NCBI GenBank assembly: GCA_964642015.1
Contig: CAZXLF010000002.1
Location: 95,678-159,677, forward strand
Source: an uncultured Planctomycetia bacterium
GTDB lineage: Bacteria; Omnitrophota; Gorgyraeia; 2-02-FULL-51-18
Reading direction: 5' to 3'
DNA length: 64,000 nucleotides
The position numbers and the translations under genes were made by a program. Within the stretch, counting starts at the first letter, position 1. Each line of letters starts with the position of its first letter. The notes beneath the pieces were generated by a model. It was not told the DNA's origin and did not search any database. It saw only the letters and a list, made by a program, of their open reading frames with translations. Of this stretch, positions 28,995 through 55,674 are shown one piece after another.

Positions 28995-29799
28995 GAAAGA
29001 GCATTTAGAGTTGCTGAAATTTTTATCAGGGCAAAGAAAAGAAATTTTGCCGTTCTGGCGTATCGTTGACTTTCAGCCTAATGATCTTTCTGTTTTGGAA
29101 TCCATGCATCGTGTTTCATGGAGACGCTATGTCTCTTCGATAGCTATGATCTTTCTGATCAGTGGATCGTGCGTTTTTATCGGGTTGATGAAGGGTCGGC
29201 CCGCTTGGGCATCCACAACAAAAGAGGATAGCGGTCTTGCCAGTAATGAAGGAGAGTTAAAGATTGAAGATATCAAACCGCTGAATGAGGACGGAGAAGA
29301 ACTTAAAGAAGATGCGGCGATCGCGGCAAAAGCCAAAGAATCTCATTTTGTGAGCGTGGAAAAGAAAAGACCTGCGAAACCGGCAGCATCGGACCTTCTT
29401 GGGCCTCAGCCTAAAAAAGGTTACAAGCCGAAGATATATATGGCGCCTCTTGATCCCGATGACGCTAAGATGAAAGGCATTGTAAAAAGTGTCACCGGGA
29501 AAATGACGGTTAAAAATACCAATGGATTGGCCGTCGAATATCAGGTCGATAAAGCGACGCATACTCCTAGAGAGATGTGGCTTAATTTTGTGGGCGGTAT
29601 GGAAGTGGCTAAAGCAAAGAGCATGGATGAGATTCAGCCGGGCGATACGGTCAAGGTCACTTATAAAATGCCCAAAGATGAATCCAGGAAAATCCTAACA
29701 AAAGTGGAGTTGGTTAAGCACAAACCTGTTCAAGTTGATGAATCTACTGCTAGCGGCACCAAAGAAGCTTCTTCTTTTCTTATGGATAAAAACTTATGA
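28969..29799 (+). CDS. hypothetical membrane protein (single TM, Lys/Pro-rich linker, C-terminal beta-rich domain)
   Basis: 276 aa; TM IAMIFLISGSCVFIGL; GGAG RBS 8 nt upstream; stop overlaps giant gene start (ATGA). Confidence 0.5.
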   Translation: MKLNSQKNKKEHLELLKFLSGQRKEILPFWRIVDFQPNDLSVLESMHRVSWRRYVSSIAMIFLISGSCVFIGLMKGRPAWASTTKEDSGLASNEGELKIEDIKPLNEDGEELKEDAAIAAKAKESHFVSVEKKRPAKPAASDLLGPQPKKGYKPKIYMAPLDPDDAKMKGIVKSVTGKMTVKNTNGLAVEYQVDKATHTPREMWLNFVGGMEVAKAKSMDEIQPGDTVKVTYKMPKDESRKILTKVELVKHKPVQVDESTASGTKEASSFLMDKNL

Positions 29800-32700
29800 G
29801 CAATGGATCGGAACGCATAATAGAGAATTTTAAAAGGACAGCACACAGACAGATTAAGCCCTGTGTCTTTTTATTCTCTTTAGCATTTGTGTTCCAGCTC
29901 TTTCTTTGTTCTGATGCTTCCGCTGTGCAGATCAATAAAATTTATCGAGGTATTGTTAGTTTTGACGTAGGCGATGTCCTTCAGTCCGTTAACTTGGGTG
30001 CCAACGTTGATCCTACGAAGACCATAGTTTTAGTCAGCTCCACAGGCCGTGATTCTGTTTCAAGAACTCAAGGTGAAGGAAATTATTGGTTTGCGGGAGT
30101 TCTTGCCGGAACCGATACGGTGGTGCTGAAAAGACTGCGTTCTGATATGACCGGGTCTGTAGCTTGGCAAGTCATTGAATTTAATGATGGCGTGAAAGTC
30201 CAGTCAGGAGAAACTATTTTGGATGTTGTTGCTGGATCAGCGGGATTATCGAGACAAGTTGATCTTCCGACGCAGATCAGTGATACGACAAAAGCAGTCC
30301 CGATCATTCAATTCATGAGCTCTCTCGGAGCCGGACAAAACGTCGCCCCTCAGCCGGTTTACCAGAACACTGATCAGTATATGTTTTTTCCAACCCTTTT
30401 TCAGAACGGTAGTATCACGGAACTTCAAATAGATCGTACTCGATGCACGACGGTTAACAGGGCCCGCGCTGCCGATATTATTTGGCAGGTGATCGAATTC
30501 CAGACTGATGCGCGTGTGATCAGTGGGCAGACGATGATGTATGTGCCCGGTAGCACCGGCGGACGATCCGCGTCTAACGTTCGCCCTCAAACAGCAACGA
30601 ATGATGGGACTGCTTTCCCCGCAAATACGGTTTGCGCAAATACTGGTGGTGTTTGTTCTGCTTTTACGAATTCAAGCGCATTCAGCCCCACTTTGTCTAA
30701 TAGCGGCCAGAACGCAATGCTGTTTTTTAACGTATTACCGGGCGTTTCCACTGTGAACAACTCTCCCGTTGGATGGTCATCGACAAGCAGTAACGCAAAT
30801 ATGTCTACGAACGGATATAGCGGTGAAGATGCTTACCTTTATGTGCGTGGTACTATTACCAACAACACGACCGTAACGTTTACCCGCGCCGCAGCCCCTA
30901 GTACCGCAAACACGAATCTTCTTATAAAATATTGGGTCGTGGATTTTGTGGAAGGAGGCAGTGGTTCTTCCTATATAGGGTTGGGACAAAAAGGCAACGA
31001 TGCGGGCCAAACCACCGCTGCGCCGGCCACGGTTTCAGTCAGCAGTGAAGCCGCGGGTACTTCAGATATTATCGTGACGTGCGGTTCTAACCACGGGTTC
31101 ACACAATATAAATTGACCAATTTTTCTCCAGGCACTAATACAACTCAATGCGAAGCGAGCGGTTCTTGGATTGTGGGTACTCAAACCTGGACTGCGGCGA
31201 CTTTTAGTGAAGATGGGTCAGGAACCACCATTTCCTCAACCAATAGTGCTTCAGTGTCCCAAGGAATTGAAACTGCTTTGAATACGACCACGGCATTGGA
31301 TAGAATGATGAATGTCGGCTATGTAGCCGCTACTGTAGCAGCGCCTTCTACGGTTAACATCTCTTCGTCTGCCAATAGCGGTACCGTCAATATATCATCT
31401 TCGACAAATACCACTACCTATAATATTTCAGCGTCAACGAATAGCCCTTCGTTCAATATCGCATCTTCTACCAACGCCAATCCTATTGTGATCACGACGT
31501 CCGCCGCTCATGGTTATTCCAATGGCGATATAGTCCAGGTCATGAATCATCAGACCAACACGGCTGCCAACGGGACCTGGACAGTGGCTGGTGTGACGGC
31601 GACTACTTTTCAATTGACTGGTTCGAATGGCAATGGCGTCGGTGGTGCGACCGGCACTGTGCAAAGATGCATCAAGATCACAACCACTGCGACGAATACT
31701 TATGCGACAGGCGATCTCATTACCGTCAGCGGCCATACAATTAATACGAACGCGAACGGTACTTGGCCGATCACAGTGATTGACGGGACGCATTTTTATC
31801 TTCAGGGCGCGCTTGGCAATGGAACAGGTGGTACGACAGGCACTGTTGCCAATGCGATTAAGATCACAACCTCCGGTGCCCATGGTTTAAGTACTGGTTA
31901 TGAGGCGTATATCAGCGGCCATACAACAAATACCAACGCGAATGGTACTTGGACCGTCAATGTGCCGACTGGCAGCACGACAACATTTAATCTTGTCGGA
32001 TCTACAGGTAATGGCACCGGCGGAGCAACAGGCACTGTAGGAAGAATAGTTACTGTGACTACAGCCGCAAGCCATAACCTTGCCGTAGGCAATGAAGTTT
32101 ATATCACAGGGCATACATTGGATACCAATGCGAATGGTACCTGGACTGTTTTGACTGCTCCCACCGCGACGACTTTTACGATTGCGGCGGCAGCTAACGC
32201 GGCTGGCGGCGCAACCGGCACGATTGCGTTATATAATGAAGCGGCTCTTTCGACGACATATACCTATGTCGATGACTTGAGTTTTATAAACTATGCTTAC
32301 ACTCGTACCAATCCGTATTTGATTACATTGCGCGATTCCAATTCTAGAGGTATCGCGGCAAGTATAGATTATTTAACCTATGAATTTCCGGCAGTCACTT
32401 TAAAAGTGCCGAACGGCGGTGAAACTTGGGCAGTGGCTGACAGTAATTTTACGACCAACAATAAGATCACGTGGAAAACTTCGGTGAACAATTCCGCGCA
32501 TAACTGGAAACTTCAATACTCCACGAACGGCGGCACAAGCTGGACAGATATGGGAAGCTGGTGCGGTGGGGCAGGAACTTCCGCTTGCAGCAGCAGCTCT
32601 CATGATCTGGGAACCCAAGGCACGGCCGGCATAACTTGGCGTGTGCCGGATGCTTTGAATGATGCGGGTCCGCCGGCAAATCTTATCGGGTCAAATTTAA

Positions 32701-47700: not shown

Positions 47701-50700
47701 GTGAGGTATGGACTGTTGGCACTTCACAAAACATTACCTGGAACAAAGTGGGTTCTGCATCAAGCGTGAAACTTGAATATTCAACCGATAATTTTGCTAC
47801 TTCAACCACAATCACCCCGGGCACTGGAAATACCGGAACTTTTGGATGGACGATCCCTGATGCGATTAGCGCCAATGCGAAAGTAAGGATCAGCGATGCG
47901 ACTAATCCAAATGCATTCGACCTTTCCGATAACAACTTTAAGATCAGGGGTTCGCTGACTGTTACGGCTCCAAATGGTAATGAATCGTGGGGCGTTGGAA
48001 CAACGCAGGCGATTACTTGGACCAAGGTTGGCTCGATCGCCAATGTCAAGCTTGAGTACTCTACGGATCAGGGGACGACCTATCCCAATCTGATCAACGG
48101 CACAGTGACAGCGAGCGATCTATCCTATAATTGGACGATACCAGACGATATTTCTGCGAATGCCCGCGTAAAGATCACCGATGCAAGCGACTCAACTGTC
48201 TATGATGAATCTAATAATAATTTCAGGATCCGCGGTTCATTCACGCTTACCGCGCCAAATGGCGGAGAGGTTTGGGATGTTGGTACCGCCCATAATATTA
48301 CCTGGACCAAAGTCGGTTCGATTGCGAATGCGATGCTTGAATATTCCACTGATGGCGGCGGTACGTATCCCAACGTTATCGTCGGTCAGATCGATGCTTC
48401 TTCGCTTAGTTTTGGCTGGACGATTCCGGATGCAATCTCAACATTGGTGAGAGTTCGTATCAGCGATGCGTCTGATTCTGTTGTGAACGATGTGTCGAAC
48501 GCTAATTTCAAAATACGCGGCGTCTTGACCCTGACGTCTCCTATCGGAGGAGAAGTTTGGACCGTGACTTCCTCTCACAATGTCACTTGGACAAAAGCCG
48601 GATCAATTTCCAATGCCAGACTTGATTATTCTACCGATAGTGGCGCTACTTATCCGAATGTGATTACGACTTCTGTGTCAGCCGGCGCTCTAAGTTATCC
48701 ATGGACGATCCCTGATAGCATTTCTTCCACAGTCCGAGTAAAGATCACGAATTTGTCTGATGCCACGGTCAACAGCTCTTCGCCCGCTGACTTTAAGATC
48801 ACCGGATCTTTAAATATTACATCACCTGTTGGAGGCGAGGTGTGGTCCGTCGGCTCGACTCAACCGGTGTCCTGGACCCGGGTCGGTTCGATAGCAAATG
48901 TGAAGATCGACTATTCCACGGACAGCGGTGTCACCTATAACAAGTCGATCGTAGCTACTACACCGGCAGCGGCGTTGAGCTATACATGGACGATCCCCGA
49001 CGACCTATCTTTGACGGTGCGAGTCAAAGTTTCTGATGCGAACGATTCCTCAGTTTTCAGTACTTCGCCCGCCAATTTCAAGATCCGCGGTTCCTTTACG
49101 ATCACTGCGCCGAATGGCACTGAGGCATGGGTCATTGGTTCCACGCATACGGTAACATGGACAATGAACGGCTCGATCGCTAGCGCGAAACTCGAGTATT
49201 CCAAAAACGCAGGCGCTGATTCTTACCCTTATCTGATCGTAGGATCCGTACAAGCTTCAAATTTGAGCTATTCTTGGACGATTCCGGATGATGCCACGAC
49301 TCAGGCGCGGGTCAGGATCTCAAATGTTGCGGATTCCACGGTTTTTGATACTTCCGATGCGAACTTTACGATTCGTGCCGGATTTACGGTCACATCGCCT
49401 GTTGGTGGCGAATCGTGGGCCGTGGGTGACACGCAGAATATAACATGGATCACCGGTGGTACGATTGCGAATGTAAAACTTGAATACTCTTCGAATGGCG
49501 GTAATAGTTATACGACCATTATTTCTACGACACCCAATAACCAGCTCTATGCTTGGGTAGTGGCGGACGCGATCACAACTCAGGCGAGAGTCCGTGTGTC
49601 AGATGTGAATGACCCATTGGCTGCCGATATTTCACCAGCTAATTTTAAGATCCATGGCACTTTTACTTTGACTGCGCCAAATGGCGGAGAACAATGGTCA
49701 GTGGGCTCAACGCAAGCTATAACCTGGACCAAGACAGGGTCGATCGCCGCGGCCAAACTTGAATATTCCACGGATGGTGGTGCGACTTATCCCAATTTGA
49801 TCATCGGAAGTACGCAGGCAGGACCTTTGTCTTATAACTGGACAATTCCGGATGTGATAGGTAATAACCTTAAAGTGAAAATCACTGATGCCAGCGATTC
49901 TTCAGTGTACGATGTATCAAATAATGTTTTCAAAGTCAAAGGTCAATTTACCATTACTTCACCTAACGGTTCCGAAAACTGGATCGTGTCCTCATCACAT
50001 AATATTACATGGGGTACTCTGGGTACGGTTGCGAATGTTAAACTGGAATTTTCCACCGATGGTGGCGCGACTTATAATTCGATCATTAATACTACGCAGA
50101 ATACGGGTACTTACGCTTGGGCAATTCCGGATGCGATTACGACTCAGGCGCGTGTGCGTATTTCGGATGTTAATGATAGTACGGCTTATGATGTTTCTGA
50201 TAACAATTTCAAGATCCGCGGTGATTTGTTGTTAACAGCTCCGAACGGCGGAGAAAAATGGAATGTCGGAACCAGCCGCCTTATCACTTGGAACAGGACC
50301 GGATCCATCCCGAACGTTAAATTGGAGTATTCATCCAATAACGGCACTGTTTATGTGCCGATCACTACAACTGGAAATACGGGCGCCTATTCTTGGACCA
50401 TTCCGGATGCTATTACCACTCAAGCGCTGGTTAGAATATCCGATGCTAATGACAACACAGTCGTAGATACGTCAAATGCCGTGTTCAAAATAATGGGTAA
50501 TTTCACTGTGACTTCCCCGAATGGCGGTGAAGTCTGGACGGTCACGAGCTCCCAAAACATTACCTGGACTTCCAGCGGTACGATGAGTTTTGCCAAAATC
50601 GAGTATTCAACGGACGGTGGCTCTACCTATAATCTGATAAACGGTTCTACCTCGAACAACGGGTTGTATGCATGGACGGTACCGGACGCTGTTTCGGGCA

Positions 50701-53700
50701 CCGCGCTTATCCGCGTGTCAGACCCGAATGATCCTGATGCGACTGATACATCTAATGCAAATTTCCGTATTCGCGTCCAGTTTTCTTTAACCGCCCCTAA
50801 TGGTGGCCAAAAATGGACAGTTGGCCGCAGCTCTAACATTACGTGGGCGACCGTCGGGACGATACCGAATGTCAAACTCCAATATTCTAGAGACGGATTC
50901 TTGGCTGATATCAATACAATTAATGCAGCTGCGCCTAGTACGGGTACTTATAGCTGGTTGGTGCCGGATGCGATCAGCAGCACGGTGAGGGTGCGTGTTT
51001 CGGACCCGAACGATATCGGAGCTTATGATGATTCAAATGCTGATTTCAAGATCATGGGTGGTTTTGTGGTTACCTCGCCAAATGGCGGAGAAAAATGGGA
51101 TGTGGGTTCTACTCATACGATCACTTGGACTCATACGGGCTCTGTATCTGACGCCAAGGTGGAATATTCAACAGACGGCGGCGCGACCTATCCTAATGTG
51201 ATCGCTGCTACGCCTAATACGGATTCCTATGATTGGCTGGTTCCAGATACAATTTCAGCCGCATTTAAAGTGCGTATCAGTGATTTAACAGATCCGGATG
51301 CGTTTGATACGACAGATGCTAATGCCAAGATCCGTGCGAAATTCACGCTGACATCGCCAAATGGCGGAGAGATCTGGAAAGTCAGCGAAGCTAACAATAT
51401 TACCTGGACCACGGTTGGAACTGTGGCGAATGTGAAACTGGATTATTCCACTGATAGCGGAGTTACATTCCCGAATATAATCACATCGGGTATATCCAAC
51501 ACCGGCACGTATTCATGGACGGTCCCTGATGCTATATCGACCAATGTTCGTGTACGTGTGATGAGCGTGACTGACACGGATGCTTTTGATGCGTCGGATG
51601 CAGATTTCAAGATCCGCGGTAAATTCCAGATCACTTCACCCAACGGAGGAGAATTGTGGAAGATCGCGCAGAACAATAACATCACATGGGTTACAACGGG
51701 TACCATGAATAATGTAAAAATATCCTATTCGACGGATTCCGGAGCTACATTCCCCAATGTTATTACACCTACAGTCGTGAATTCCAATTCATATACTTGG
51801 AACGTGCCCGATAATCCGACGATCAATGCTCGCGTACGCGTCGAATACGTGAATGACTCGGCGGTCTATGATGATTCAGATGCCAGTTTCAGGATCCAAG
51901 GGTTCTTCTCAATCACTTCGCCAGTTGGAGGCGAAGCATGGATCGTGGGAACTCAGAACAATATCACTTGGACATGGGGCGGAACGATCCCCACCGTTAA
52001 GATTTCCTATTCGAAAGACAGCGGCGCAACCTATCCCAATGTGATCGCGGCTGCCGCGCAAAATGGAAATGGGAGCGCAGGGAGTTTTAGTTATGCATGG
52101 ACCGTTCCTGATGACATTTCCACGACGATCCGCGTAAAAGTAGAAGATCCCAATGATAATACGGTGTATAGCGCATCTCCCGCGGATTTTAAGATCCGAG
52201 GCGCTTTTGTTGTGACAGCTCCCAATGGGGGAGAACGTTGGGTTACAAATGAAAGCCGCGATATCACCTGGACCACAAGCGGTACGGTGCCGAATGTTAA
52301 ACTGGAATATTCGAATGATAATTTTGCCACGACGAATGTCATAACACCGACAACACCCAATACTGGCACATACACTTGGACGATACCCGATCCCGGCATT
52401 GCCAATGTTCCGATCGGGACAAAGGTTAGGGTCTCCGATGTAAATGACGCGACAGTTTACGACAATTCAGATGCCAGCTTTAATATTGATTATTACAATA
52501 TCACTTGGGAAGTTAGAGATCTTCTGACCAATCAGCCGTTGGCCGACCTCGTGGTTTTAGAAGTAAAGGCAACGGATATTAATTTTGTGCAATGGTCCGA
52601 AGCAGGTATTACAACCAGTCCTCCCAGAGTCCAGAAGACTCCTTACGGTACATGGGTCGCCACTTGGAAAAAGTCAGGCTATGGTGATCAGGCGGTCACC
52701 GTGGTTGCCGATCAGGACAGATCTTTTACTACAGCCAACGGCAATCCTGTTTTAATGGAAACGACCACCGTGCATATTTGGGAAGCTTTATCGCAGGTTT
52801 CTTATAATCCAACTACGGATACAGCGGATGTACTCTGCTCGTTGTCGCGTGATGGTTCGGTTGTGACCGGTGCCGTTACTGTTATTTATGACGTATATGA
52901 TGGCACCACGTTGGTCACAGAATTGACCAGTTCTAGTGTTGATTCGGTCGGTTTCTTCCATCTGACAATCGGCAGCGGTTTGCTGCAGGCCGGTAAGACA
53001 TACGGTACCATCACAAAAATTTCGAACGCCGCAGGCGGAATTTTCAAGACCCCATCTTCTTTTGAAATTACGACCCCTGAGAAATTACAGCAGATGCAGG
53101 ATAAGATCAATGCGACTCTGGATAAACCTCTTTCTCAGGTCAGCTCAGAATTACAAGCCACTTTGAATGCGCAGACGACGACGATTAACACTAAATTGGA
53201 TCAGCAGACGACAACTATTAATACCAAACTTGATGAACAGACCACGAAGATCCAGACCGCTTTGGATAATTTCCAAACCCAAGTGCATACCGCGGTAGAA
53301 GAGCTTCAATCGGGCGCTGATCAAAGTTTGGCTGCCGCTAAAACCTTGGAAGATACAGCGCTTAAATTTTCATGGAAGGCCGTTGTGGCTCCGAATCCGG
53401 CTTTGAGCGGTGATACCATTCTATTGCAGACCCAAGGTCCCAAAGGCCTTTTCCCTTATCTAAGTGTTTATAACCATAAGAATAAGCAAGTTATCGCCAA
53501 CGGTTTGATGGTAGAAGATCCTACAAGGCCGGGTAATTATTCATTCGAATTCAAAGCCGACTCCGGAAGTTTCGAAGCCGGACAAGCTTACACTTATGTG
53601 GTTACTGAAAACGTGACGGGTGGTTTGGTGGCAGGCTCAGGTTTCGTTGAAAGTATTTCACTTACAGCGGTCGCGGGTCTTGCGTCGTCAGCGCCAGCAG

Positions 53701-54086
53701 CTGAGAAGGCGGCGAAAGAAGCGGTGGATGCTATTCATGATTTGGAAGCTACCATGGCTCGCGGAGGCGATATTCGTAAAGCGCTGTTGAATTTGCAAAA
53801 TTCCGTGAATGACCTTCCTCAGCAAGTGGCCAAGATGTCGGGAGGCGATACCAAGCGCATTAAAACAGCGGTCAATGAGATCTCTGAGAGACTTCAGAAG
53901 CTCGCAGGTAATGAGGGATTAGACTTTAGTTCGCTCTTTAAGCGCGCGATCGATGAGTCTTCAACGGTCCAAGATATCCGCAGCCGGTCCGAGACCATCT
54001 CACAATCTCTTGAGCTTCTCGGCGCTGTGGTCCAGAAGCGTCTTGGAGGTACTGACGAGCCGGTCGTCGCCACTTTCCTCGAATAA
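29796..54086 (+). CDS. giant repetitive surface protein, 8,096 aa (signal/TM anchor, ~70 Ig-like beta-sandwich repeats, C-terminal coiled coil)
   Basis: uninterrupted 24,291-nt ORF; N-terminal hydrophobic segment CVFLFSLAFVFQLFLCSDASA; recurring PNGGExWxVGxxxNITWxxxGSIxNVKLEYSTDGG...WTIPD...RVRISD unit; S/T/N/G-rich, Cys-poor. Confidence 0.85.
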   Translation: MSNGSERIIENFKRTAHRQIKPCVFLFSLAFVFQLFLCSDASAVQINKIYRGIVSFDVGDVLQSVNLGANVDPTKTIVLVSSTGRDSVSRTQGEGNYWFAGVLAGTDTVVLKRLRSDMTGSVAWQVIEFNDGVKVQSGETILDVVAGSAGLSRQVDLPTQISDTTKAVPIIQFMSSLGAGQNVAPQPVYQNTDQYMFFPTLFQNGSITELQIDRTRCTTVNRARAADIIWQVIEFQTDARVISGQTMMYVPGSTGGRSASNVRPQTATNDGTAFPANTVCANTGGVCSAFTNSSAFSPTLSNSGQNAMLFFNVLPGVSTVNNSPVGWSSTSSNANMSTNGYSGEDAYLYVRGTITNNTTVTFTRAAAPSTANTNLLIKYWVVDFVEGGSGSSYIGLGQKGNDAGQTTAAPATVSVSSEAAGTSDIIVTCGSNHGFTQYKLTNFSPGTNTTQCEASGSWIVGTQTWTAATFSEDGSGTTISSTNSASVSQGIETALNTTTALDRMMNVGYVAATVAAPSTVNISSSANSGTVNISSSTNTTTYNISASTNSPSFNIASSTNANPIVITTSAAHGYSNGDIVQVMNHQTNTAANGTWTVAGVTATTFQLTGSNGNGVGGATGTVQRCIKITTTATNTYATGDLITVSGHTINTNANGTWPITVIDGTHFYLQGALGNGTGGTTGTVANAIKITTSGAHGLSTGYEAYISGHTTNTNANGTWTVNVPTGSTTTFNLVGSTGNGTGGATGTVGRIVTVTTAASHNLAVGNEVYITGHTLDTNANGTWTVLTAPTATTFTIAAAANAAGGATGTIALYNEAALSTTYTYVDDLSFINYAYTRTNPYLITLRDSNSRGIAASIDYLTYEFPAVTLKVPNGGETWAVADSNFTTNNKITWKTSVNNSAHNWKLQYSTNGGTSWTDMGSWCGGAGTSACSSSSHDLGTQGTAGITWRVPDALNDAGPPANLIGSNLKLRIVDTEDALYNGGTEGAPNYPELRIKDASNSAFKVYGTITNVVTNPDATGSNYWGYNASSRQVRWNQTGNVGTVRINIDYNKDGVFDSNDNGTFGGVALTGYPAQSGITVGAGNLVSGNTYYVNWNNAWDYSTTGLKVQIAADTDSSGTGNEHGESAAFEIRPTITLTAPASSSSVNRGKSTNITWTSSGQIGNCDIYLSYNNGADGYPTKLNGSAVNGDGGTWAWNVSSTETLTSGAKLCIVRQGSTPASFTVGDTGPHGGTGAFSILSSVALTNPVAAQNPPWVVNADQTIAWTTSGGSGVTNVDLLYRTDCAGSPNCGGTTSGWTAVPSATNITNNGSFTWFSLPASLQGTSTGIRVQDHNNATTIYDQVGPFTTKPSVSFDNVTDTPNSSTVWRVGDNQTITWHKNGTTGNLTVVWGTNGPGGPWPNTIATGVTGTSTPWNNIPAGAISNNVSIRVYDPGDSTYVTGASQAFSVKANITNVVLRKGTLGTDPISASFQIDDPMRIEWSVSPSNLSDTVDIKLDTNSGKGADGIAGNADDFQTYTIASVPASQGYALWNPISNNSAYVSSKARIRVVSQVDSAVKADSGGGSSDFAINGVLYITDPVGSPWKIGQVQNINFTAKGVPNVDIIYALNGITFNDIATQTKTVVTGYASASGVYQWTIPNDALDIASSSIFNDTKTTIKFRVKDPNNSNVYATTTTALTLRKQYQNIAVPASVLHVDDNSAQLSNITWTTKGNTDTSHPVKLYYDLTSGSGGYANTIPVSGNNITDVGGYVWQVPASAISNNVRIKVASATDTGTVYDTMTSDFTIRGWFAFTTPPASPADILRIGGNYTIQWTNHGVFPDAGNPNHRNVSLLYSKDGTNYTNIVTDGATFYTNGSQSYTWSNIPYAARGATSLKVQYDADSSNTYLVSPAIKTKPSVSVTSPSGGTYHIGDAVPIQFTHTGATDGSDVYRARYSIDGGTTWTTIGTIAANSANMTYSPAFTVPNVANIVAGSGKFKIRVELVGDETDVTSDSSGNQILGSLGPMTPTASGITWTAADTTRQITWTPQGITTVKIEYATDGVTFNNVIASSATGNSYTWPSIPGSAVSDNVKIRITAQDTNDSVTSITSGNSLTIVPQLVLVAPNGPSTRTVGAAMPITWTSSGAGNIKLEYTTNANAGSPTWTTLTNYSNFDSTPQSDNSATVPDAISSHVKFRLSNVTANPNLQVYSTSNTEFAIQGGLTLNNIAGPFTLGDTVNVTWTPNGSMGNITVEYYNGSSWSTMTTTAPQAGPYALVLDTVNSINTATNLAKVRISATNGLAPATTSSAFTVKPYLTVTSPAGNEAWVVDSSQNIGWTIKGSNISQVSIYYSKDSGTTYNNLIIDPLNINFGGGNNMTYSWTIPDDIQATKNMKVKVSTLPLSDPWATSAVSNGLFQIVGQLAMKIPDNTTPIQWRVGSNGNIIKWTNVHGSVANVELDYSTAGDGGPWTAITTSTTSGGPGDHTFSWDIANNFSIVKNNFRIRVLDAANNNVSNASTATSSTLANFTITHPTSGDVWVAETTNTIQWSTPSAGVPSNVKIEYCLSSCGTPGNWNPIPENDGTPNDGIVTNSGSVNWTLGTTRTNSAQIRISDPNDSSSIITGTAFKIRGDFTVTSPTTGLESWDINSTHAITWTKKGNVSTVKLQYSNNGDAGPFNALVDGNSADTQNIDVSGVGPTYTFNWKIPDIAGQTSVHAKIRVVDTSDSTVYATSGNEFTIKGHVNLSQPNGGQTLTVGSTYNITGTVDGVGITNVRMYYSTDGATFPMGINETSGGLVVPVSSGTFSQAWSIPDHIGTNTLVRVEDSTNSTVNAISASTFSIKGGATITAPTGTSVWVAGTQQNIVWDRNGTIGNVDLYYQVNGGAWTAIATGISSPNPTGNTFPWTIPSNNIVSNNVKIKIDGTNLATPAISSAFTVKGSIAITYPDATGIVKSLGDSLTVTWNVQGDIGNVQVEYYNGSAWSTITTTATQAGPYTFTLDSPNTTTVTNLAKVRISQASDSTVTSTSTNAFMVKPFIQVTSPAGGEAWVVDDTTRTITWNYKGTNISNVKIDYDTQSGNGGYPNSITTSTNNNGSFTWPSIPDDIQATKDMKVRISTLPGSDPWVVSAVSNGLFQIVGQLAMKVPDNTTPVQWRIGSTGNVVKWTNVHGSITNVFLEYSTDGGTNWNTLKDSTPSGIPGDHTYSWDIPNNFPIVKNNLRIRVSDAANNNVSNASTATSSTLANFTITHPTSGDVWVAETTNTIQWSTPSAGVPSNVKIEYCLSSCGTPGNWNPIPENDGTPNDGIVTNSGSVNWTLGTTRTNSAQIRISDPNDSSSVLTGTAFKIRGDFTVTAPTSGAESWEVNTLNNITWTKKGNVSSVKLQYSTDSGTNYSALVDGDGKDTQNIDVTGTGPYTFSWRIPDVVGITSQHARIRVVDASDSTVYASSINDFTVRGHVTLLTPDASGVVLTVGSTYAVTGTEYGNIANVRLYYSTNGGATYPNGLNEVSGGQLTATSGGAFSQNWSVPDHIGNNLKVRVEDASNSLVFAESTNAFSIKGGVTITAPLNTSVWIAGDPQNITWDRNGTIGNVDLYYQVNNGVWNTIATSVSSPSPTGNTFSWTLPNTGIVSNNVKVKIDGSDLIAPAISSAFTVKGKLTLTYPTASGISLSLGDPITVTWNTQGDIGNVKVEYYDGSAWTTVTTSAPQNGPYQFTLNSPVTTVATTGAQVRISAASDSTVNSTSANAFTVKPFVQITSPAGNEAWVVATHHNITWNYIGSNVANVKIEYSKDSGANYNDTITPTTTNNGTFDWTIPDDIQAVKDMRIKISTLPVTDPYAISAVSGGLFQIVGALQMVVPSNATGIAWRVGSTSNLITWNATGSIANVKIDYSTDTGNTWSQLVATTPSGAGNNKTYSWDVPNNTPIIKDNFRIRVSDAANTNVYDMATSNSSILANFTISHPGVGEVWIAENTYAIQWSTPVPGVPANVKIEYNVGSGWTLLSENDGTPNDGIVTNSGSVNWTLPTNRTLSAQVRISDPNDSNSVVTGNAFKIRGDLTVTAPNTGQESWEVATLNNITWTKKGNIAAVKLQISSDGGSNYAALVDGDGKDTQNIDVTGVGPTYTFNWKVPDVPGITSTQTRIRALDASDSTVYDDSNNNFTIKGRVQLSLPNGGEVLTVGTPYTVSGSVFGPITSVRLFYSINGGSTYDYGLNEVSGGQLVNVNAGTFSQNWNVPDHIGSNLKVRVEDATNSLVSDESDAPFSIKGGVTITAPTSNSVWIAGDPQNIVWDRNGTIGNVDLYYSVNGGAWISIATSVASPSSTGNTFAWTLPNTGIVSNNVQVKIDGATLVSPAVSPAFTVKGKLILTYPTASGISLNLGDPLNVTWNTQGDIGNVKVEYNDGSGWATITTTAPQGGPYQFTLDAPNTTVATTGALVRISAASDSTVNSTSANAFTVKPLIQVTSPAGNEAWVVGTHHNITWNHIGSNVANVKIEYSKDSGATYNDTVNPSVTNNGTFDWTIPDDIQAVKDMRIKISTLPVTDPYAISAVSGGLFQIVGALQMVVPSNSTGIAWRVGSTGNLITWNATGSIANVKIDYSTDTGSTWSQLVATTPSGAGANKTYSWNVPNNTPIIKDNFRIRVSDAANTNVYDTATSNSSILASFTIAHPVIGEVWAAETANNIVWSTPVAGTPTSVKLEYDLGSGYQTINATAPNSGSYTWTLPTGLSTAAHVRISDSNDSSSAIVSDPFKIRGSLTITAPTGGEAWTYNTHHNITWTKLGSISTVKLEYTTDGVTYTSIATGVDPATGTPYDWTVPDVMSSTVKVKVTDSSDATVYSQSNNFTIQGTLILTSPNGSEVWTVGSVHNITWNRTGSIQYVKLDYSTNGGGTYPNSITASTDATVPYAWTIPDQIGTQLRVKVTDANNANVSDTSDNNFKVNGALTITAPNGNEILSVGSPTNITWTRTGSIANVKLEYSTDGGSTFPNVIAGVTDASALTYAWTVPDALGIQTRVRITDTTDSTVTDMSDGNFTIKGALTLTAPNGGEVWKVGQVQDIVWQRFGSIQNVVLEYSTNGGSSYPNVINPSVSASSGVYHWTIPDSITIQAKVRVSDLSDSTVKAESAANFAIKGTLRVITPNGGEAWGVGTNQNITWARTGSIANVRIEYSTDGGATYPVTIIDPTDASTGTYSWTIPDNLSITCRVKITNTSDATVFDATDANFKIIGALHLTSPVGGEGWKVGTPQNITWTRTGSIASVKLEYSKDGGSTFPNQITPSTPAGGLSYNWTIPDDLGTNVKVRISDASDATVNDVSTNPFKIQAIFTLTSPTGGEVWDVSSSHNITWTKVGSAPSVKLEYSTDSGANFNKSINPSVGNTGTYGWTIPDDISASVRVRISDVNDYSAFDATASDLKIRGVLHLTSPVGGENWDVASVHNITWTRTGSVSFVKLEYSTDGGSNYSNLITASVAGSNLSYSWTLPDAISTQIRVKITDTSDPTVTDASGSNFIIKGALTVTAPNGGESWIVATGQNITWTRFGSIPFVKIEYSVDGGGTYPNVITPSTDASVLSYTWTVPDNITTQARVKITDTSNAAVFDTSNANFAIRGAFTLTSPNGGELWIVGSSHNITWTRTGSILNAKLEYSTDGGVTFPNLIIGVQDASTGTYPWTVPDAIGSQLQVKITDTSNNTVFDTSNANFTVKGSLTITAPNGGETWIVGQTNNITWNRSGTINSVKLEYSTDGGSTYPNLINGNANGLTGSYPWPVPDAIGTSVRVRVSDASDPSVNDNSDGNFTVKGSITVTSPNGGEAWVVNSTHSITWTKTGTMANVKIEYSIDGGVTYPNTIATTVNAASLSYSWFIPDDIQSSVRVKITNLSDSSVFDASDTNFKITGSLTLTAPNGGENWKVGTNQNITWTKVGSIGFVKLEYSNNGGNTFPNTIVGSTPAAALSYTWNIPDDLTAQALVKISDASDSTVFDKSDANFGIIASFTITAPNGGEVWTVGTSQNITWNKVGSASSVKLEYSTDNFATSTTITPGTGNTGTFGWTIPDAISANAKVRISDATNPNAFDLSDNNFKIRGSLTVTAPNGNESWGVGTTQAITWTKVGSIANVKLEYSTDQGTTYPNLINGTVTASDLSYNWTIPDDISANARVKITDASDSTVYDESNNNFRIRGSFTLTAPNGGEVWDVGTAHNITWTKVGSIANAMLEYSTDGGGTYPNVIVGQIDASSLSFGWTIPDAISTLVRVRISDASDSVVNDVSNANFKIRGVLTLTSPIGGEVWTVTSSHNVTWTKAGSISNARLDYSTDSGATYPNVITTSVSAGALSYPWTIPDSISSTVRVKITNLSDATVNSSSPADFKITGSLNITSPVGGEVWSVGSTQPVSWTRVGSIANVKIDYSTDSGVTYNKSIVATTPAAALSYTWTIPDDLSLTVRVKVSDANDSSVFSTSPANFKIRGSFTITAPNGTEAWVIGSTHTVTWTMNGSIASAKLEYSKNAGADSYPYLIVGSVQASNLSYSWTIPDDATTQARVRISNVADSTVFDTSDANFTIRAGFTVTSPVGGESWAVGDTQNITWITGGTIANVKLEYSSNGGNSYTTIISTTPNNQLYAWVVADAITTQARVRVSDVNDPLAADISPANFKIHGTFTLTAPNGGEQWSVGSTQAITWTKTGSIAAAKLEYSTDGGATYPNLIIGSTQAGPLSYNWTIPDVIGNNLKVKITDASDSSVYDVSNNVFKVKGQFTITSPNGSENWIVSSSHNITWGTLGTVANVKLEFSTDGGATYNSIINTTQNTGTYAWAIPDAITTQARVRISDVNDSTAYDVSDNNFKIRGDLLLTAPNGGEKWNVGTSRLITWNRTGSIPNVKLEYSSNNGTVYVPITTTGNTGAYSWTIPDAITTQALVRISDANDNTVVDTSNAVFKIMGNFTVTSPNGGEVWTVTSSQNITWTSSGTMSFAKIEYSTDGGSTYNLINGSTSNNGLYAWTVPDAVSGTALIRVSDPNDPDATDTSNANFRIRVQFSLTAPNGGQKWTVGRSSNITWATVGTIPNVKLQYSRDGFLADINTINAAAPSTGTYSWLVPDAISSTVRVRVSDPNDIGAYDDSNADFKIMGGFVVTSPNGGEKWDVGSTHTITWTHTGSVSDAKVEYSTDGGATYPNVIAATPNTDSYDWLVPDTISAAFKVRISDLTDPDAFDTTDANAKIRAKFTLTSPNGGEIWKVSEANNITWTTVGTVANVKLDYSTDSGVTFPNIITSGISNTGTYSWTVPDAISTNVRVRVMSVTDTDAFDASDADFKIRGKFQITSPNGGELWKIAQNNNITWVTTGTMNNVKISYSTDSGATFPNVITPTVVNSNSYTWNVPDNPTINARVRVEYVNDSAVYDDSDASFRIQGFFSITSPVGGEAWIVGTQNNITWTWGGTIPTVKISYSKDSGATYPNVIAAAAQNGNGSAGSFSYAWTVPDDISTTIRVKVEDPNDNTVYSASPADFKIRGAFVVTAPNGGERWVTNESRDITWTTSGTVPNVKLEYSNDNFATTNVITPTTPNTGTYTWTIPDPGIANVPIGTKVRVSDVNDATVYDNSDASFNIDYYNITWEVRDLLTNQPLADLVVLEVKATDINFVQWSEAGITTSPPRVQKTPYGTWVATWKKSGYGDQAVTVVADQDRSFTTANGNPVLMETTTVHIWEALSQVSYNPTTDTADVLCSLSRDGSVVTGAVTVIYDVYDGTTLVTELTSSSVDSVGFFHLTIGSGLLQAGKTYGTITKISNAAGGIFKTPSSFEITTPEKLQQMQDKINATLDKPLSQVSSELQATLNAQTTTINTKLDQQTTTINTKLDEQTTKIQTALDNFQTQVHTAVEELQSGADQSLAAAKTLEDTALKFSWKAVVAPNPALSGDTILLQTQGPKGLFPYLSVYNHKNKQVIANGLMVEDPTRPGNYSFEFKADSGSFEAGQAYTYVVTENVTGGLVAGSGFVESISLTAVAGLASSAPAAEKAAKEAVDAIHDLEATMARGGDIRKALLNLQNSVNDLPQQVAKMSGGDTKRIKTAVNEISERLQKLAGNEGLDFSSLFKRAIDESSTVQDIRSRSETISQSLELLGAVVQKRLGGTDEPVVATFLE
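31485..32235 (+). repeat. 4 tandem ~187-nt (62-aa) coding repeats with HTxNTNANGTW core, inside giant gene
   Basis: IVITTSAAHGYSNGD...ANGTWTV / IKITTTATNTYATGD...ANGTWPI / IKITTSGAHGLSTGY...ANGTWTV / IVTVTTAASHNLAVGN...ANGTWTV. Confidence 0.8.
37251..37586 (+). repeat. 336-nt segment >99% identical to 39399-39734 (copy A)
   Basis: single mismatch across 336 nt; antisense ORFs 37319..37540 and 39467..39688 in track give identical 73-aa translations. Confidence 0.9.
39399..39734 (+). repeat. 336-nt segment >99% identical to 37251-37586 (copy B), offset exactly 2148 nt
   Basis: as above. Confidence 0.9.
43978..52495 (+). repeat. 30 consecutive tandem ~273-285-nt (91-95 aa) Ig-like coding units inside giant gene
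   Basis: each unit: [LF]T[LIV]T[AS]PNGGExWxVG(T/S)xxNITWT(R/K)xGSI.xVKLEYSTDGG.TYPN.I....DAS.L.Y.WT[IV]PD.I....RV[RK]I[ST]D.SD..V.D.S..NF.I.G; counted unit by unit from the translation. Confidence 0.85.
53171..53258 (+). repeat. three ~33-nt direct repeats encoding QTTTINTKLDQ / QTTTINTKLDE / QTTKIQTALDN in predicted coiled coil of giant protein C-terminus
   Basis: direct nucleotide repeat cagacgac(g/a)ac(g/t)attaa(c/t)ac(t/c)aaa(t/c)t(g/t)gat. Confidence 0.7.
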
Positions 54087-54126
54087 TAGAGTTTAATAAC
54101 GCTAAAAGATATACTATAATGACATC

Positions 54127-54975
54127 ATGTTGATAAGCTCCAAGAACGCTTCTGGTGTCTATCAAAAGATAGCGAAAATCGCTTTGATTTCGCTATTTTT
54201 TTCTTGTTTGTTCACCCATCTTTCATGGGCCGCCGGTACGGTTAAAATGCGTATCATGCTGGTGAATCCATCCACATCAAAAACCCAGACCAAATCAGTC
54301 AAAAATTACCTTCCAAAAGAAATTACTCAAAAGAATATCTTGGATGCCGGAGGCCTCGAGGTTGATTATGACCAAGAGCAAGGACTTTTTTATGTATTCA
54401 AGAATGAGGTAGAGCTTGCCCCGTCGGAGACTAAAACTTTTGAAATAGTGCTCGAGGATGTTTGGGCCATTCCCAAAGAAAAGTTGGATGAATACCGCAA
54501 TCGTACAAATGCCGTACTCGAGCGTTTAAAAAATACGGCTTATTTTAATCAGGCCGATCTGATCGGTAAGACGATCATTGGACGGCTCGACGACATTGAT
54601 AGAACCCAGAATGATCTGTCGGTCAGCAAACAACAAAAAATAGCTTATTACCGGGATAATCTCAAACTGCTAGACCAAGTGAAAGATGATCTTGAAAAAC
54701 TTGAAAAGCTCCTTGTGGCCGTGGGCGGTCCTCCGAACCTTGAATTGATCGAAAAATCAGATATTAACCTCAAGTCGCCTTCATCCAAGACAACATGGAT
54801 CGTGATCTTTATCGTTTTGATCTTCATAGGCATACTCTCGGCAACTTTCTATTTTACGTGGATGCGTCAAGCGAGTTTAACGGAAAACATTTTTACGAAA
54901 GAAAAAGAAAATTCATTCGCTGAATTTAAGCCTACACCTCCGGAAGGAGGCGGTGAAGCGGAGAAAAAGACTTAA
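54127..54975 (+). CDS. hypothetical bitopic protein (N-terminal signal/anchor, soluble coiled-coil-containing domain, C-terminal TM)
   Basis: N-terminal IAKIALISLFFSCLFTHLSWA and C-terminal TTWIVIFIVLIFIGILSATFYF hydrophobic segments; begins 41 nt after giant gene stop. Confidence 0.5.
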   Translation: MLISSKNASGVYQKIAKIALISLFFSCLFTHLSWAAGTVKMRIMLVNPSTSKTQTKSVKNYLPKEITQKNILDAGGLEVDYDQEQGLFYVFKNEVELAPSETKTFEIVLEDVWAIPKEKLDEYRNRTNAVLERLKNTAYFNQADLIGKTIIGRLDDIDRTQNDLSVSKQQKIAYYRDNLKLLDQVKDDLEKLEKLLVAVGGPPNLELIEKSDINLKSPSSKTTWIVIFIVLIFIGILSATFYFTWMRQASLTENIFTKEKENSFAEFKPTPPEGGGEAEKKT

Positions 54976-55240: not shown

Positions 55241-55319
55241 ACCCAGCACTTGACATTAAAATTTTCAATGAACTTATCAAGGGTTGGGCGAATCCGGATT
55301 TGGGAGGACTTTTAACGGG

Positions 55320-55544: not shown

Positions 55545-55600
55545 CCCCAGTTCAATAAAGAAACAGCATATATGCGGCACTTGGAATTTATATAAAAATG

Positions 55601-55629: not shown

Positions 55630-55674
55630 TTGATTAAAATAATGAGTTTTTATATACCATAGAATAGGTAATTC

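What the first reader, a model, noticed from the sequence alone, without database searches (positions are those of the whole stretch)
29796..54086. 24.3-kb single ORF encoding an 8,096-aa modular surface protein
One uninterrupted reading frame spans 38% of the window. It has an N-terminal hydrophobic anchor or signal, a ~2-kb non-repetitive head with an internal duplication (WQVIEFNDGVKVQSGETI and WQVIEFQTDARVISGQTMM), roughly 70 Ig-like beta-sandwich modules at three levels of repeat organisation, and a C-terminal coiled-coil/globular tail. Composition is S/T/N/G-rich and almost Cys-free, as expected for an extracellular fibre. Giant genes are a known hallmark of some candidate phyla, notably Omnitrophota. 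This gene's position between secretin-side and ATPase-side pilus/secretion genes, and directly upstream of the odd F1-like cluster, is notable. It suggests the protein is a substrate or a structural part of that machinery, for example an adhesive fibre for attachment to a host or prey cell.
Basis: partly seen in the sequence, partly recalled or inferred. Interest (0 to 1): 0.75.

Follow-up and report, generated by a model that had tools for sequence, protein, structure and literature searches.

The report
Giant Ig-repeat surface fibre of Omnitrophota
This is a real 24-kb gene for an 850-kDa thread of 67 immunoglobulin-like domains, probably with a lectin-like tip and a membrane-anchored base; it sits at a fixed place inside the pilus/secretion plus F-type ATPase locus of tiny Omnitrophota bacteria and most likely serves for attachment to other cells.

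Summary
The ORF is confirmed exactly as described: 29796..54086, 8,096 aa, with no stops and no Ns.

Its layout is a cleavable Sec signal, three tandem beta-domains (the head), a Ser/Thr-rich linker with 63-aa repeats, 67 contiguous ~95-aa Ig-like modules, and a 540-aa tail.
- The modules are relatives of Kre9_KNH/Big_7 and fall into three groups: 12 divergent, 25 in a 7-module super-repeat, and 30 more uniform.
- The tail has beta-sandwiches, a ~97-residue helix and a helical bundle.

The repeats are old (61-74% nt identity, dN/dS 0.05-0.17), so repeat collapse is unlikely. The one exception is a 309-nt exact repeat.

Relatives occur in Omnitrophota MAGs and metagenomes, always in the same gene order: GspA-like/GspC-like/secretin/TPR … Y1-like … giant – 282-aa protein – F-type ATPase genes – GspE-PilZ.

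In two distant orthologues the 282-aa membrane protein is fused to the giant's C-terminus. This puts the tail at the inner membrane and the head at the far end.

The head model (low confidence) resembles lectin and phage receptor-binding domains.

Best reading: a ~0.3-µm adhesive fibre that is a structural part of the published "symbiotic F-ATPase/T4aP" locus. It is a new variant of a known kind. Function is inferred, not shown.

The parts
29796..54086 (+). Giant ORF, 8,096 aa. The mature protein is about 849 kDa with pI 4.8.
29796..29924 (+). Sec-type signal peptide, aa 1-43. Charged n-region, hydrophobic core aa 19-44, predicted cleavage ASA|VQ.
   Evidence: Kyte-Doolittle scan. The AxA|VQ(I/V)K junction is conserved in head-family relatives.
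29925..30995 (+). Head, aa 44-400. Three tandem 'WQVIEF' beta-domains, modelled as a compact all-beta unit.
30996..32384 (+). Ser/Thr-rich linker, aa 401-863, with four to five ~63-aa repeats (HG..GD...GHT.NTNANGTW.V) between aa 421 and 812.
   Evidence: No family assigned.
32385..36374 (+). Ig-like modules 1-12 (aa 864-2193), mutually divergent at 20-30% identity.
36375..43961 (+). Ig-like modules 13-37 (aa 2194-4722). A 7-module super-repeat of ~715 aa with a 2148/2118-nt period, about 3.6 copies.
   Evidence: Copies are 60-82% aa and 61-74% nt identical; dN/dS 0.05-0.17.
37278..37586 (+). Longest exact internal repeat, 309 nt. Its twin is at 39426-39734, 2148 nt downstream. This is the only place where a repeat unit could have been miscounted in assembly.
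43962..52463 (+). Ig-like modules 38-67 (aa 4723-7556). Thirty ~95-aa units with a 285-nt period, 40-60% aa identity.
   Evidence: Module 67 modelled at pLDDT 88-97.
52464..54083 (+). Tail, aa 7557-8096. A weakly modelled beta region, a confident beta-sandwich (about aa 7663-7760), a ~97-residue helix (about 7761-7857), a beta domain (about 7868-7943) and a helical bundle (about 7956-8082).
   Evidence: AF2 model. Foldseek. 35-59% identical tails in six MAG loci.
54127..54975 (+). 282-aa partner protein: signal peptide, beta/coiled-coil ectodomain, C-terminal TM helix (aa 218-247) and a short charged tail. In orthologues L006 and L007 it is fused to the giant's C-terminus.
28969..29799 (+). 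276-aa single-TM protein. Its stop overlaps the giant's start (ATGA). Conserved upstream of head-family giants.
27774..28994 (+). 406-aa protein: IS200/RayT-like Y1 domain, then a TM helix, then a periplasmic domain shared with the 26765-27439 protein. Conserved upstream partner in 14 of 16 loci.
22097..26659 (+). Secretin-side genes: ExeA/GspA-like AAA ATPase, GspC/B-like protein, PilQ/GspD-like secretin, and a TPR protein resembling a Tgl/PilW pilotin.
   Evidence: Same order upstream of the giants in L015 and L018.
54992..60142 (+). F-type ATPase genes: short epsilon, c, b/delta fusion, alpha, gamma, beta. No a-subunit gene in the window. The c-subunit has Ser where the ion-binding carboxylate normally lies.
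60142..62791 (+). MshEN-domain protein and a GspE/PilB-type ATPase with a C-terminal PilZ domain. GspF, Peptidase_MA_2 and a GspG-like pseudopilin follow (seen in L001).

Best explanation
The gene encodes a cell-attached fibre about 0.3 µm long, belonging to an uncultured Omnitrophota bacterium. I propose these steps:
1. The protein is exported by Sec, and its signal peptide is cut after ASA.
2. The C-terminal tail stays at the inner membrane. It is held by the 282-aa type-I membrane protein encoded 41 nt downstream, which is a split-off version of a C-terminal TM anchor that is still fused to the giant in distant orthologues.
3. The 67 Ig-like modules form an acidic stalk.
4. The N-terminal three-domain head is the far tip and binds a ligand, probably a glycan, on a host or prey cell or a surface.
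5. The fibre crosses the outer membrane through, or with the help of, the co-encoded PilQ/GspD-type secretin system.
6. Its deployment is co-regulated with that system's cyclic-di-GMP-responsive ATPase and with the non-canonical F-type ATPase.

Shown: the gene, its architecture, the Ig-like fold, the conserved locus and the fusion. Inferred: the topology, the route across the outer membrane, ligand binding and the biological role.
For: - **Real gene under selection.** The frame is intact. Paralogous super-repeats have dN/dS 0.05-0.17 with saturated dS. Both ends are reproduced by independent assemblies.
- **Export.** There is a single N-terminal hydrophobic segment and an AxA|VQIK junction conserved across relatives.
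- **Ig-like stalk.** PF10342 scores 58 bits on an 800-aa piece. Of 67 modules, 26 match PF10342 and 13 match Big_7 individually. The modelled module has pLDDT 88-97. Foldseek E 1e-7 to 1e-5 to macroglobulin/FN3-like domain strings and to the repeat region of a large adhesion protein, 6xi3.
- **Polarity.** In L006 and L007 the 282-aa homologue continues in frame from the tail and ends in a TM helix (Kyte-Doolittle 3.1-3.3) plus a short charged tail. The window's 282-aa protein has its own signal peptide and the same C-terminal TM.
- **Link to the machinery.** The gene order is the same in seven downstream loci at 35-59% tail identity and in 16 upstream loci. Genes are tightly spaced or overlapping on one strand. 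No terminator-like site follows the giant. In L013 a short head-bearing paralogue lies between the MshEN and GspE genes.
- **Published context.** Omnitrophota 'symbiotic' F-ATPase/T4aP loci and giant ORFs have been proposed as attachment factors (PMC10066038). Giant genes lie next to T2SS-like loci (bioRxiv 10.1101/2023.11.21.568195).
Against: - There is no experimental data of any kind.
- The head model has low confidence (pLDDT 58.5). Foldseek against the PDB gave no hit at E <= 0.001, so 'lectin-like' is only a lead.
- A protein anchored in the inner membrane and threaded through a secretin has no characterised precedent. Nothing here shows that it crosses the outer membrane.
- The fusion is seen in only two related lineages. 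The tail-to-anchor interaction in the split form is assumed.
- Conserved gene order could reflect co-regulation rather than physical association.
- The middle 15 kb of the gene lacks independent assembly support. One 309-nt exact repeat leaves the super-repeat copy number open by one unit.
Confidence: 0.5

Rival explanations
1. It is a released type II secretion substrate. The fibre is exported by Sec, folded in the periplasm, pushed out through the secretin and let go, acting as a matrix or bridging protein rather than an anchored organelle.
For: It has an N-terminal Sec signal and lacks T1SS, T5SS, T9SS, PEP-CTERM and sortase signals. GspC-, GspD-, GspE-, GspF- and GspG-like genes flank it. 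The window's giant has no TM anchor of its own.
Against: Orthologues in L006 and L007 carry a fused C-terminal TM anchor. The anchor gene is retained immediately downstream in every other locus. At 849 kDa it would be several times larger than any T2SS substrate I know of (own knowledge).
Confidence: 0.15
2. It is an independent adhesin whose position is incidental. The giant gene sits in this locus only through shared regulation or inherited gene order, and is exported and anchored without the secretin system or the ATPase.
For: No physical link has been shown. Promoter-like sites exist upstream of the Y1-like gene and in the 41-nt gap after the giant. Head-family proteins also occur in other contexts, for example P0008 next to TIR and HTH genes.
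Against: The order is kept across lineages whose tails are only 35-40% identical and in 20 or more loci. Genes overlap or are tightly spaced. In L013 a head paralogue lies inside the GspE sub-operon.
Confidence: 0.15
3. It is the external 'leg' of a motor. The fibre, through its 282-aa membrane anchor, is mechanically driven by the adjacent non-chemiosmotic F-type ATPase, in the manner of the giant Gli349/Gli521 surface proteins and the F1-like ATPase of Mycoplasma mobile gliding.
For: The giant and its anchor are always directly upstream of the epsilon-c-b/delta-alpha-gamma-beta genes. No a-subunit gene is present in the 64-kb window. The c-subunit carboxylate is replaced by S/T/A in the window's clade. 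Seymour et al. classify such loci as non-respiratory and liken them to the Mycoplasma type 2/3 ATPases (PMC10066038).
Against: - Alpha and beta pass the cut-offs for canonical atpA/atpD and fall below the cut-offs for the MMOB1660/1670 gliding families.
- The two fused-anchor lineages keep the c-ring Glu.
- The a-subunit could be encoded elsewhere in the genome.
- A diderm envelope makes force transmission harder.
- No homology to the Gli proteins was tested.
Confidence: 0.12
4. It is an assembly artefact or a pseudogene. The length is inflated or deflated by mis-joined repeats, or the frame is not really open.
For: Short-read Logan contigs break inside the array at window positions 34017 and 49455. 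A 309-nt exact repeat spaced 2148 nt apart allows a one-unit error in the count.
Against: - Repeat copies are only 61-74% identical at the nucleotide level outside that 300-nt patch.
- The selection signature is strongly purifying.
- A one-unit error of 2148 nt would stay in frame.
- Orthologous ORFs of at least 3,500-4,100 aa with 25-35 modules exist in ten or more independent contigs.
Confidence: 0.05

Closest known systems
Giant Ig-like repeat adhesins of Gram-negative bacteria (MpIBP of Marinomonas primoryensis, LapA, SiiE, and the large adhesion protein of PDB 6xi3)
   Same: It has dozens of tandem ~100-aa Ig-like domains forming an acidic stalk that is nearly free of Cys. Specialised end regions sit at both termini, one holding the protein on the cell and the other binding ligand. 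Foldseek matches 6xi3 at E 8e-6.
   Different: Those proteins are type I secretion substrates with RTX repeats, a C-terminal secretion signal and an N-terminal retention plug (own knowledge). Here there is an N-terminal Sec signal, no GGxGxD motif at all and no T1SS genes nearby. The polarity is the opposite, with the C-terminus next to the cell.
Omnitrophota giant proteins: Archaeovorins and Dockerin-type (West-Roberts et al. 2023, bioRxiv 10.1101/2023.11.21.568195) and the tandem-repeat scaffold class of Nielsen and Lui 2026 (bioRxiv 10.64898/2026.06.07.730766)
   Same: Same phylum. It lies next to T2SS/T4P-like genes, with a PilZ domain downstream. Its repeats are old and diverged at the nucleotide level. 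The proposed role is attachment to a host or prey cell.
   Different: At 8.1 kAA it falls below the size thresholds of those catalogues (10 kAA or more, and 30 kAA or more). It has one hydrophobic segment instead of many TM helices, and no SecA-DEAD, HEAT, dockerin or TSP3 content. It has its own conserved head and tail, neither of which any Pfam or NCBIfam model covers.
[quoted passage not shown] 2023, PMC10066038)
   Same: F-type ATPase genes sit directly beside pilus-type genes: beta ends at 60142 and the GspE/PilB-type gene starts at 60599. The locus type is reported in every class of the phylum.
   Different: In the parts of the paper I read, giant ORFs are treated as a separate trait. 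Here a giant gene and its anchor are fixed members of the locus, lying between the secretin/pilotin genes and the ATPase genes. I did not reproduce their alpha-subunit phylogeny. By NCBIfam, alpha and beta look canonical.
Mycoplasma mobile gliding machinery (Gli349/Gli521 legs plus the type 2 F1-like ATPase MMOB1660/1670)
   Same: Very large surface proteins are paired with an F1-type ATPase that is thought not to make ATP. The analogy was drawn for the ATPase by Seymour et al. (PMC10066038).
   Different: Alpha and beta score 401 and 422 bits against the MMOB1660 and MMOB1670 family models, below their cut-offs of 600 and 850. Similarity of the giant to the Gli proteins was not tested. The organism has an outer-membrane secretin, so it is diderm. 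In M. mobile the leg genes and the ATPase genes are not in one operon (own knowledge).
Receptor-binding tips of phage tailspikes and tail fibres, and H-type lectins (discoidin I, Helix pomatia agglutinin, SLL-2)
   Different: Sequence identity is 6-19%, the model is of low confidence, no sugar-binding residues were identified, and Foldseek found nothing at E <= 0.001.

Membership tests
Pfam PF10342 Kre9_KNH / E-set Ig-like domains | Match to the family HMM at or above the gathering score (24.6 bits) | tested here: met
   58.3 bits, E 1.3e-15, on aa 4801-5600. Single modules are weaker: 26 of 67 match at E <= 0.01, and the example module scores 18.4 bits, below the cut-off. 13 of 67 match Big_7 instead. 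The modules are therefore a divergent relative rather than a typical member.
Pfam PF10342 Kre9_KNH / E-set Ig-like domains | Beta-sandwich (Ig/FN3-like) fold | tested here: met
   Module 67 is modelled as all-beta with pLDDT 88-97. Foldseek E 1e-7 to 1e-5 to macroglobulin, FN3-like and adhesin repeat domains.
Archaeovorin-type Omnitrophota giant proteins | Numerous transmembrane regions | tested here: not met
   One strong hydrophobic segment, aa 19-44. Two marginal segments lie inside beta modules.
Archaeovorin-type Omnitrophota giant proteins | Divergent SecA DEAD-like domain and HEAT repeats | tested here: not met
   Pfam on the head, on two 800-1000-aa pieces and on the tail found neither. 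The region aa 864-7556 is tiled by Ig-like modules with gaps of 20 aa or less, leaving no room for such domains.
Dockerin-type Omnitrophota giant proteins | [quoted passage not shown] | tested here: not met
   No PF00404 or PF18884 matches.
Type I-secreted RTX adhesins (LapA/MpIBP/SiiE kind) | RTX nonapeptide repeats and a C-terminal T1SS signal, with ABC/MFP/TolC genes nearby | tested here: not met
   There are zero GGxGxD motifs. An N-terminal Sec signal is present instead. No T1SS genes were found in the 64-kb window.
Type II secretion substrate | N-terminal Sec or Tat signal peptide | tested here: met
Type II secretion substrate | Dependence on a T2SS for crossing the outer membrane | not testable with these tools
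   Only co-location with GspC-, D-, E-, F- and G-like genes is shown.
Type IV pilin / pseudopilin | Class III (prepilin) signal with the G|F/M-T-L-x-E motif | tested here: not met
   No such motif in the first 60 aa. A signal-peptidase-I type AxA site is present instead.
'Symbiotic' F-ATPase/T4aP locus (Seymour et al. 2023) | F-type ATPase genes within 10 kb of type-IV-pilus genes | tested here: met
   The beta gene ends at 60142 and the GspE/PilB-type ATPase gene starts at 60599. GspF and a pseudopilin follow.
'Symbiotic' F-ATPase/T4aP locus (Seymour et al. 2023) | Alpha subunit in the non-respiratory clade with the Mycoplasma type 2/3 ATPases | tested here: inconclusive
   No phylogeny was run. 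Alpha scores 568 bits, above the canonical cut-off of 554, and 401 bits against MMOB1660, below its cut-off of 600. Pointing towards a non-chemiosmotic role: no a-subunit gene in the window, and the c-subunit lacks the carboxylate.
Mycoplasma mobile gliding proteins | Homology of the giant to Gli349/Gli521 | not tested
   No comparison was run. Pfam and NCBIfam scans of the head, array and tail returned no Gli-family names.

The most novel reading that the evidence does not exclude
The giant fibre, its 282-aa inner-membrane anchor and the adjacent F-type ATPase form one machine. The ATPase has no a-subunit gene in the locus and, in this clade, no proton-binding carboxylate in the c-ring. In this reading the rotary ATPase moves or tensions a 0.3-µm adhesive leg that passes through a pilus-type secretin. 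That would be a diderm counterpart of the Mycoplasma mobile gliding motor and a new way of coupling an F-type ATPase to the cell surface.
Probability: 0.12. Interest if true: 0.85.

Novelty: new variant of a known kind. Interest (0 to 1): 0.5.

Why it matters
Omnitrophota are widespread, ultra-small bacteria that appear to depend on hosts, and how they attach to other cells is unknown. Two of their published hallmarks have been treated separately: giant ORFs, and the 'symbiotic' F-ATPase/pilus locus.

This gene ties the two together. One conserved family of giant fibres, together with its membrane anchor, is a fixed component of that locus. That gives a concrete and testable architecture: a lectin-like tip, an Ig-like stalk, and a split or fused inner-membrane anchor next to an F-type ATPase whose c-ring has lost its carboxylate.

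It also defines three protein modules that no current family library covers: the head, the tail and the anchor. The head family alone has more than 900 cluster representatives in metagenomes at E <= 1e-10, although part of that count comes from an unrelated domain included in the search profile.

Tried and rejected
- The word-indexed homologue search with the whole 863-aa head found nothing. Its 8,000-candidate list was probably filled by low-complexity words. A 357-aa query then found two relatives.
- The same search with the tail returned only contig-end fragments, so no full-length orthologue lengths were obtained.
- PDB sequence searches gave no matches for the head and only E > 0.5 noise for the tail.
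- The module profile against the PDB gave only weak Ig/FN3-type hits, with designer beta-propellers at the top through a short repeated motif.
- The profile of the 63-aa linker repeats hit only BurrH through summed short matches, which I judged spurious. From memory these repeats resemble SH3-like repeats of phage fibre proteins; this was not tested.
- NCBIfam gave nothing for the head, the 282-aa, 276-aa or 224-aa proteins, and only a coiled-coil-type ZorA match for the tail.
- Foldseek against the PDB for the head gave no hit at E <= 0.001.
- I could not retrieve the NCBI record that holds the window. Cluster data show a 351,750-bp NCBI contig, but the look-ups returned only Logan contigs.
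- Rejected readings: T1SS/RTX adhesin, pilin, Archaeovorin, Dockerin-type and sortase substrate. The two internal LPxTG strings lie inside repeat modules.
Full report

Yes. The ORF listing reports a single ORF at 29796..54086 on the + strand, 8,096 aa, starting with ATG. My translation shows only the terminal stop, and the window has no N. With the window's base composition about 5% of random codons are stops, so 8,096 open codons by chance is of order 1e-186 (my arithmetic).

The composition matches the description: T 13.6, S 10.6, G 9.0, N 8.5, Cys 0.25%. The start codon overlaps the stop of the upstream 276-aa gene (ATGA). The mature protein is about 849 kDa with pI 4.8.

**2. Anatomy**

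- *Signal peptide.* The only strong hydrophobic segment is aa 19-44, followed by ASA|VQ. Relatives share an AxA|VQ(I/V)K junction. This marks a cleavable Sec signal rather than an anchor.
- *Head.* Residues 44-400 hold three copies, not two, of a ~110-aa beta-domain ending in WQVIEF-like strands. They align collinearly with P0007 and P0008.
- *Linker.* Residues 401-863 are Ser/Thr-rich and contain four to five 63-aa repeats.
- *Modules.* An HMM grown from one unit finds 67 contiguous modules covering aa 864-7556 with gaps of 3-20 aa. The identity matrix shows three tiers: 12 divergent modules; 25 modules forming a 7-module super-repeat of ~715 aa (2148/2118-nt period, about 3.6 copies); and 30 units of 285 nt that are 40-60% identical.
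- *Tail.* The 540-aa tail is modelled as beta-sandwiches, a ~97-residue helix, another beta domain and a helical bundle.

**3. What the modules are**

- Scanned singly, 26 of 67 modules match it and 13 match Big_7, each below the gathering score.
- With a 47-row alignment, module 67 is modelled as an all-beta sandwich at pLDDT 88-97.
- Foldseek matches strings of macroglobulin/FN3-like domains and the repeat region of a large adhesion protein, 6xi3, at E 1e-7 to 1e-5.
- A sequence profile against the PDB gave only weak Ig/FN3-type hits.

The modules are therefore a divergent Ig-like (E-set) family.

**4. Artefact or pseudogene?**

- Super-repeat copies are 60-82% identical in protein and 61-74% in DNA. 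dS is saturated and dN/dS is 0.05-0.17. The 285-nt units are about 60-80% identical in DNA.
- Such divergence makes repeat collapse unlikely and shows long-standing purifying selection.
- The exception is a patch of exact identity, 309 nt at 37278 and 39426. There the assembly could be off by one 2148-nt unit, which would stay in frame.
- Independent Logan assemblies of two runs reproduce window 28014-34017 (one mismatch) and 49455-64000 (identical). Both break inside the array. The middle 15 kb is therefore uncorroborated.
- Cluster data place the same proteins on an NCBI contig of 351,750 bp.

**5. Surroundings**

The whole window is on one strand.
- 1-21 kb: a glycan-synthesis cluster.
- 22097-26659: an ExeA/GspA-like AAA ATPase, a GspC/B-like protein, a PilQ/GspD-like secretin and a TPR protein resembling a pilotin.
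- 26765: a 224-aa protein.
- 27656: a terminator-like hairpin.
- 27774: a protein with an IS200/RayT-like domain, a TM helix and a periplasmic domain.
- 28969: a 276-aa TM protein.
- 29796-54086: the giant.
- 54127: a 282-aa protein.
- 54992-60142: F-type ATPase genes for a short epsilon, c, a b/delta fusion, alpha, gamma and beta.
- 60142 onwards: an MshEN protein and a GspE/PilB-type ATPase with a PilZ domain. GspF, a peptidase and a GspG-like pseudopilin follow.

**6. Relatives and synteny**

- *Tail side.* A scan of species-representative genomes with the tail found six loci at 35-59% identity. All are Omnitrophota MAGs, three of them labelled 'uncultured Planctomycetia'. In each, the tail ends a very long ORF that fills the available flank (up to >=4,124 aa, with 18-35 modules of the same family). 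Each is followed by the same genes in the same order.
- *Head side.* A head profile finds 1,621 cluster representatives at E <= 0.001. Many of these matches are to the unrelated C-terminal part of P0008, which was included in the profile. Among the top 150 proteins listed, 71 carry the full head, 48 of those within the first 90 residues, and 22 are followed by the same modules. Other relatives carry beta-propeller-like repeats instead (by eye).
- *Metagenomes.* A metagenome scan gave 16 loci. Ten ORFs run off the 10-kb flank at about 3,560-3,720 aa, and seven of these carry 25-30 modules. Homologues of the Y1-like gene (14 of 16) and the 276-aa gene lie upstream. In L015 and L018 the AAA, GspC, secretin and TPR genes appear in the same order. 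In L013 a 1,000-aa head-bearing paralogue lies between the MshEN and GspE genes.

The locus is thus a conserved unit, and the giant family is a fixed part of it.

**7. Polarity: a gene fusion**

In the two most distant orthologues (L006 and L007, from different studies) the homologue of the 282-aa protein continues in frame from the tail. The ORF ends with a strong TM helix and a short charged tail.

In the window and in L002-L005 and L013, the same module is a separate gene 40-60 nt downstream. It has its own signal peptide and the same C-terminal TM.

This is the best evidence obtained on how the protein is mounted. The C-terminal end is at the inner membrane and the N-terminal head is distal.

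**8. The head**

- The AF2 model from a three-sequence alignment is weak: pLDDT 58.5, pTM 0.66.
- Foldseek gave no PDB hit at E <= 0.001. The best match is the three-module PCSK9 C-terminal domain at E 2e-3.

A pseudo-threefold, lectin-like tip is a reasonable lead, not a result.

**9. The ATPase (followed only in part)**

- Alpha and beta exceed the NCBIfam cut-offs for canonical atpA and atpD, and fall below those for the Mycoplasma gliding-ATPase families. Gamma, epsilon, c and b/delta fall below their own cut-offs.
- The c-like ORF is a genuine PF00137 member.
- No a-subunit gene is in the window.
- Seymour et al. (PMC10066038) already describe non-respiratory 'symbiotic' F-type ATPase genes beside T4aP loci across Omnitrophota and compare them with the Mycoplasma type 2/3 ATPases. 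In the sections I read they discuss giant ORFs separately.

**10. Comparison with what is known**

- Giant ORFs near T2SS-like loci, with pilZ downstream, are reported for Omnitrophota (West-Roberts et al.). A 'tandem-repeat scaffold' class is reported for proteins of 10 kAA or more (Nielsen and Lui).
- This protein is smaller than those thresholds and lacks their defining content: many TM helices, SecA-DEAD, HEAT, dockerin and TSP3.
- It works like the classical giant Ig-repeat adhesins. It differs from them in its export signal, its polarity and its neighbours: no RTX and no T1SS.
- I therefore file it as a new variant of a known kind.

**11. Verdict**

The most likely reading is an adhesive fibre anchored in the inner membrane through a split-off partner, with a possibly lectin-like tip, that belongs to the secretin/F-ATPase locus (confidence about 0.5). 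Rivals are a released T2SS substrate, an incidentally located adhesin, an ATPase-driven 'leg', and an assembly artefact.

Everything about function is inferred from sequence, models, a gene fusion and synteny.

Noticed in passing
window 54992-60142 (c-subunit at 55284-55544); loci L002-L007 and L013: F-type ATPase cluster in the order short epsilon (82 aa), c, b/delta fusion, alpha, gamma, beta, with no a-subunit gene anywhere in the window. The c-subunit residue aligned with E. coli D61 is Ser here and T/A/S in five related loci, but Glu in the two most distant loci. Gene callers missed the c gene in the Logan contig, which has a 63-aa minus-strand call there instead.
   Followed up: partly
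window 27774-28994: A 406-aa protein with an N-terminal IS200/RayT-like Y1 transposase domain whose HUH motif appears to be replaced (…LLPDRLSLLIE…, by eye). A TM helix (aa 230-255) follows, then a periplasmic domain also found in the neighbouring 224-aa protein (26765-27439). Homologues lie directly upstream of head-family giants in 14 of 16 metagenome loci, so this looks like a domesticated, membrane-bound transposase-like domain.
   Followed up: partly
L013 9845-12847: A short (1,000 aa, four-module) protein with the same signal peptide and three-domain head sits between the MshEN gene and the GspE/PilB-type ATPase gene, downstream of the F-ATPase genes. It is a second, small head-bearing paralogue inside the same locus.
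   Followed up: no
L006 53-12427 and L007 3-7544: In the loci seen here, fusion of the 282-aa anchor to the giant coincides with retention of Glu in the c-subunit. The six loci with a split anchor all lack the carboxylate. With only two lineages against six, shared ancestry may explain this.
   Followed up: no
L009 2133-2411: In GCA_964597135.1 the head orthologue P0007 stops after 325 aa. A different reading frame then continues with NHL/YVTN-like beta-propeller repeats. This is either a frameshift in that assembly or a head encoded separately from its array.
   Followed up: no
window 267-21092: A 21-kb same-strand glycan-synthesis cluster lies upstream of the secretin genes. It encodes a UDP-GlcNAc 2-epimerase, at least seven GT4/GT1-type glycosyltransferases, a heptosyltransferase-like GT9, two FkbM methyltransferases, a carbamoyltransferase, dehydratases/epimerases and a WecA-like GT4. 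The giant protein has 185 N-x-S/T sequons against about 160 ± 10 in shuffled sequence, and is 24% Ser+Thr. Glycosylation of the fibre is possible but untested.
   Followed up: no
window 60599-62791: The GspE/PilB-type ATPase carries both an N-terminal MshEN domain and a C-terminal PilZ domain, and a separate 151-aa MshEN-only protein is encoded just upstream (60142-60597). That makes three domains of types known to bind cyclic di-GMP (own knowledge) at one secretion ATPase.
   Followed up: no
L008 6227-8068 (P0008): A 613-aa protein with four WQVIEF-type domains and no signal peptide lies next to TIR-domain and HTH genes and a protein of 1,927 aa or more, on a contig unrelated to the secretin locus. 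Its C-terminal domain has hundreds of relatives of its own, so the head domain also occurs in other contexts.
   Followed up: no
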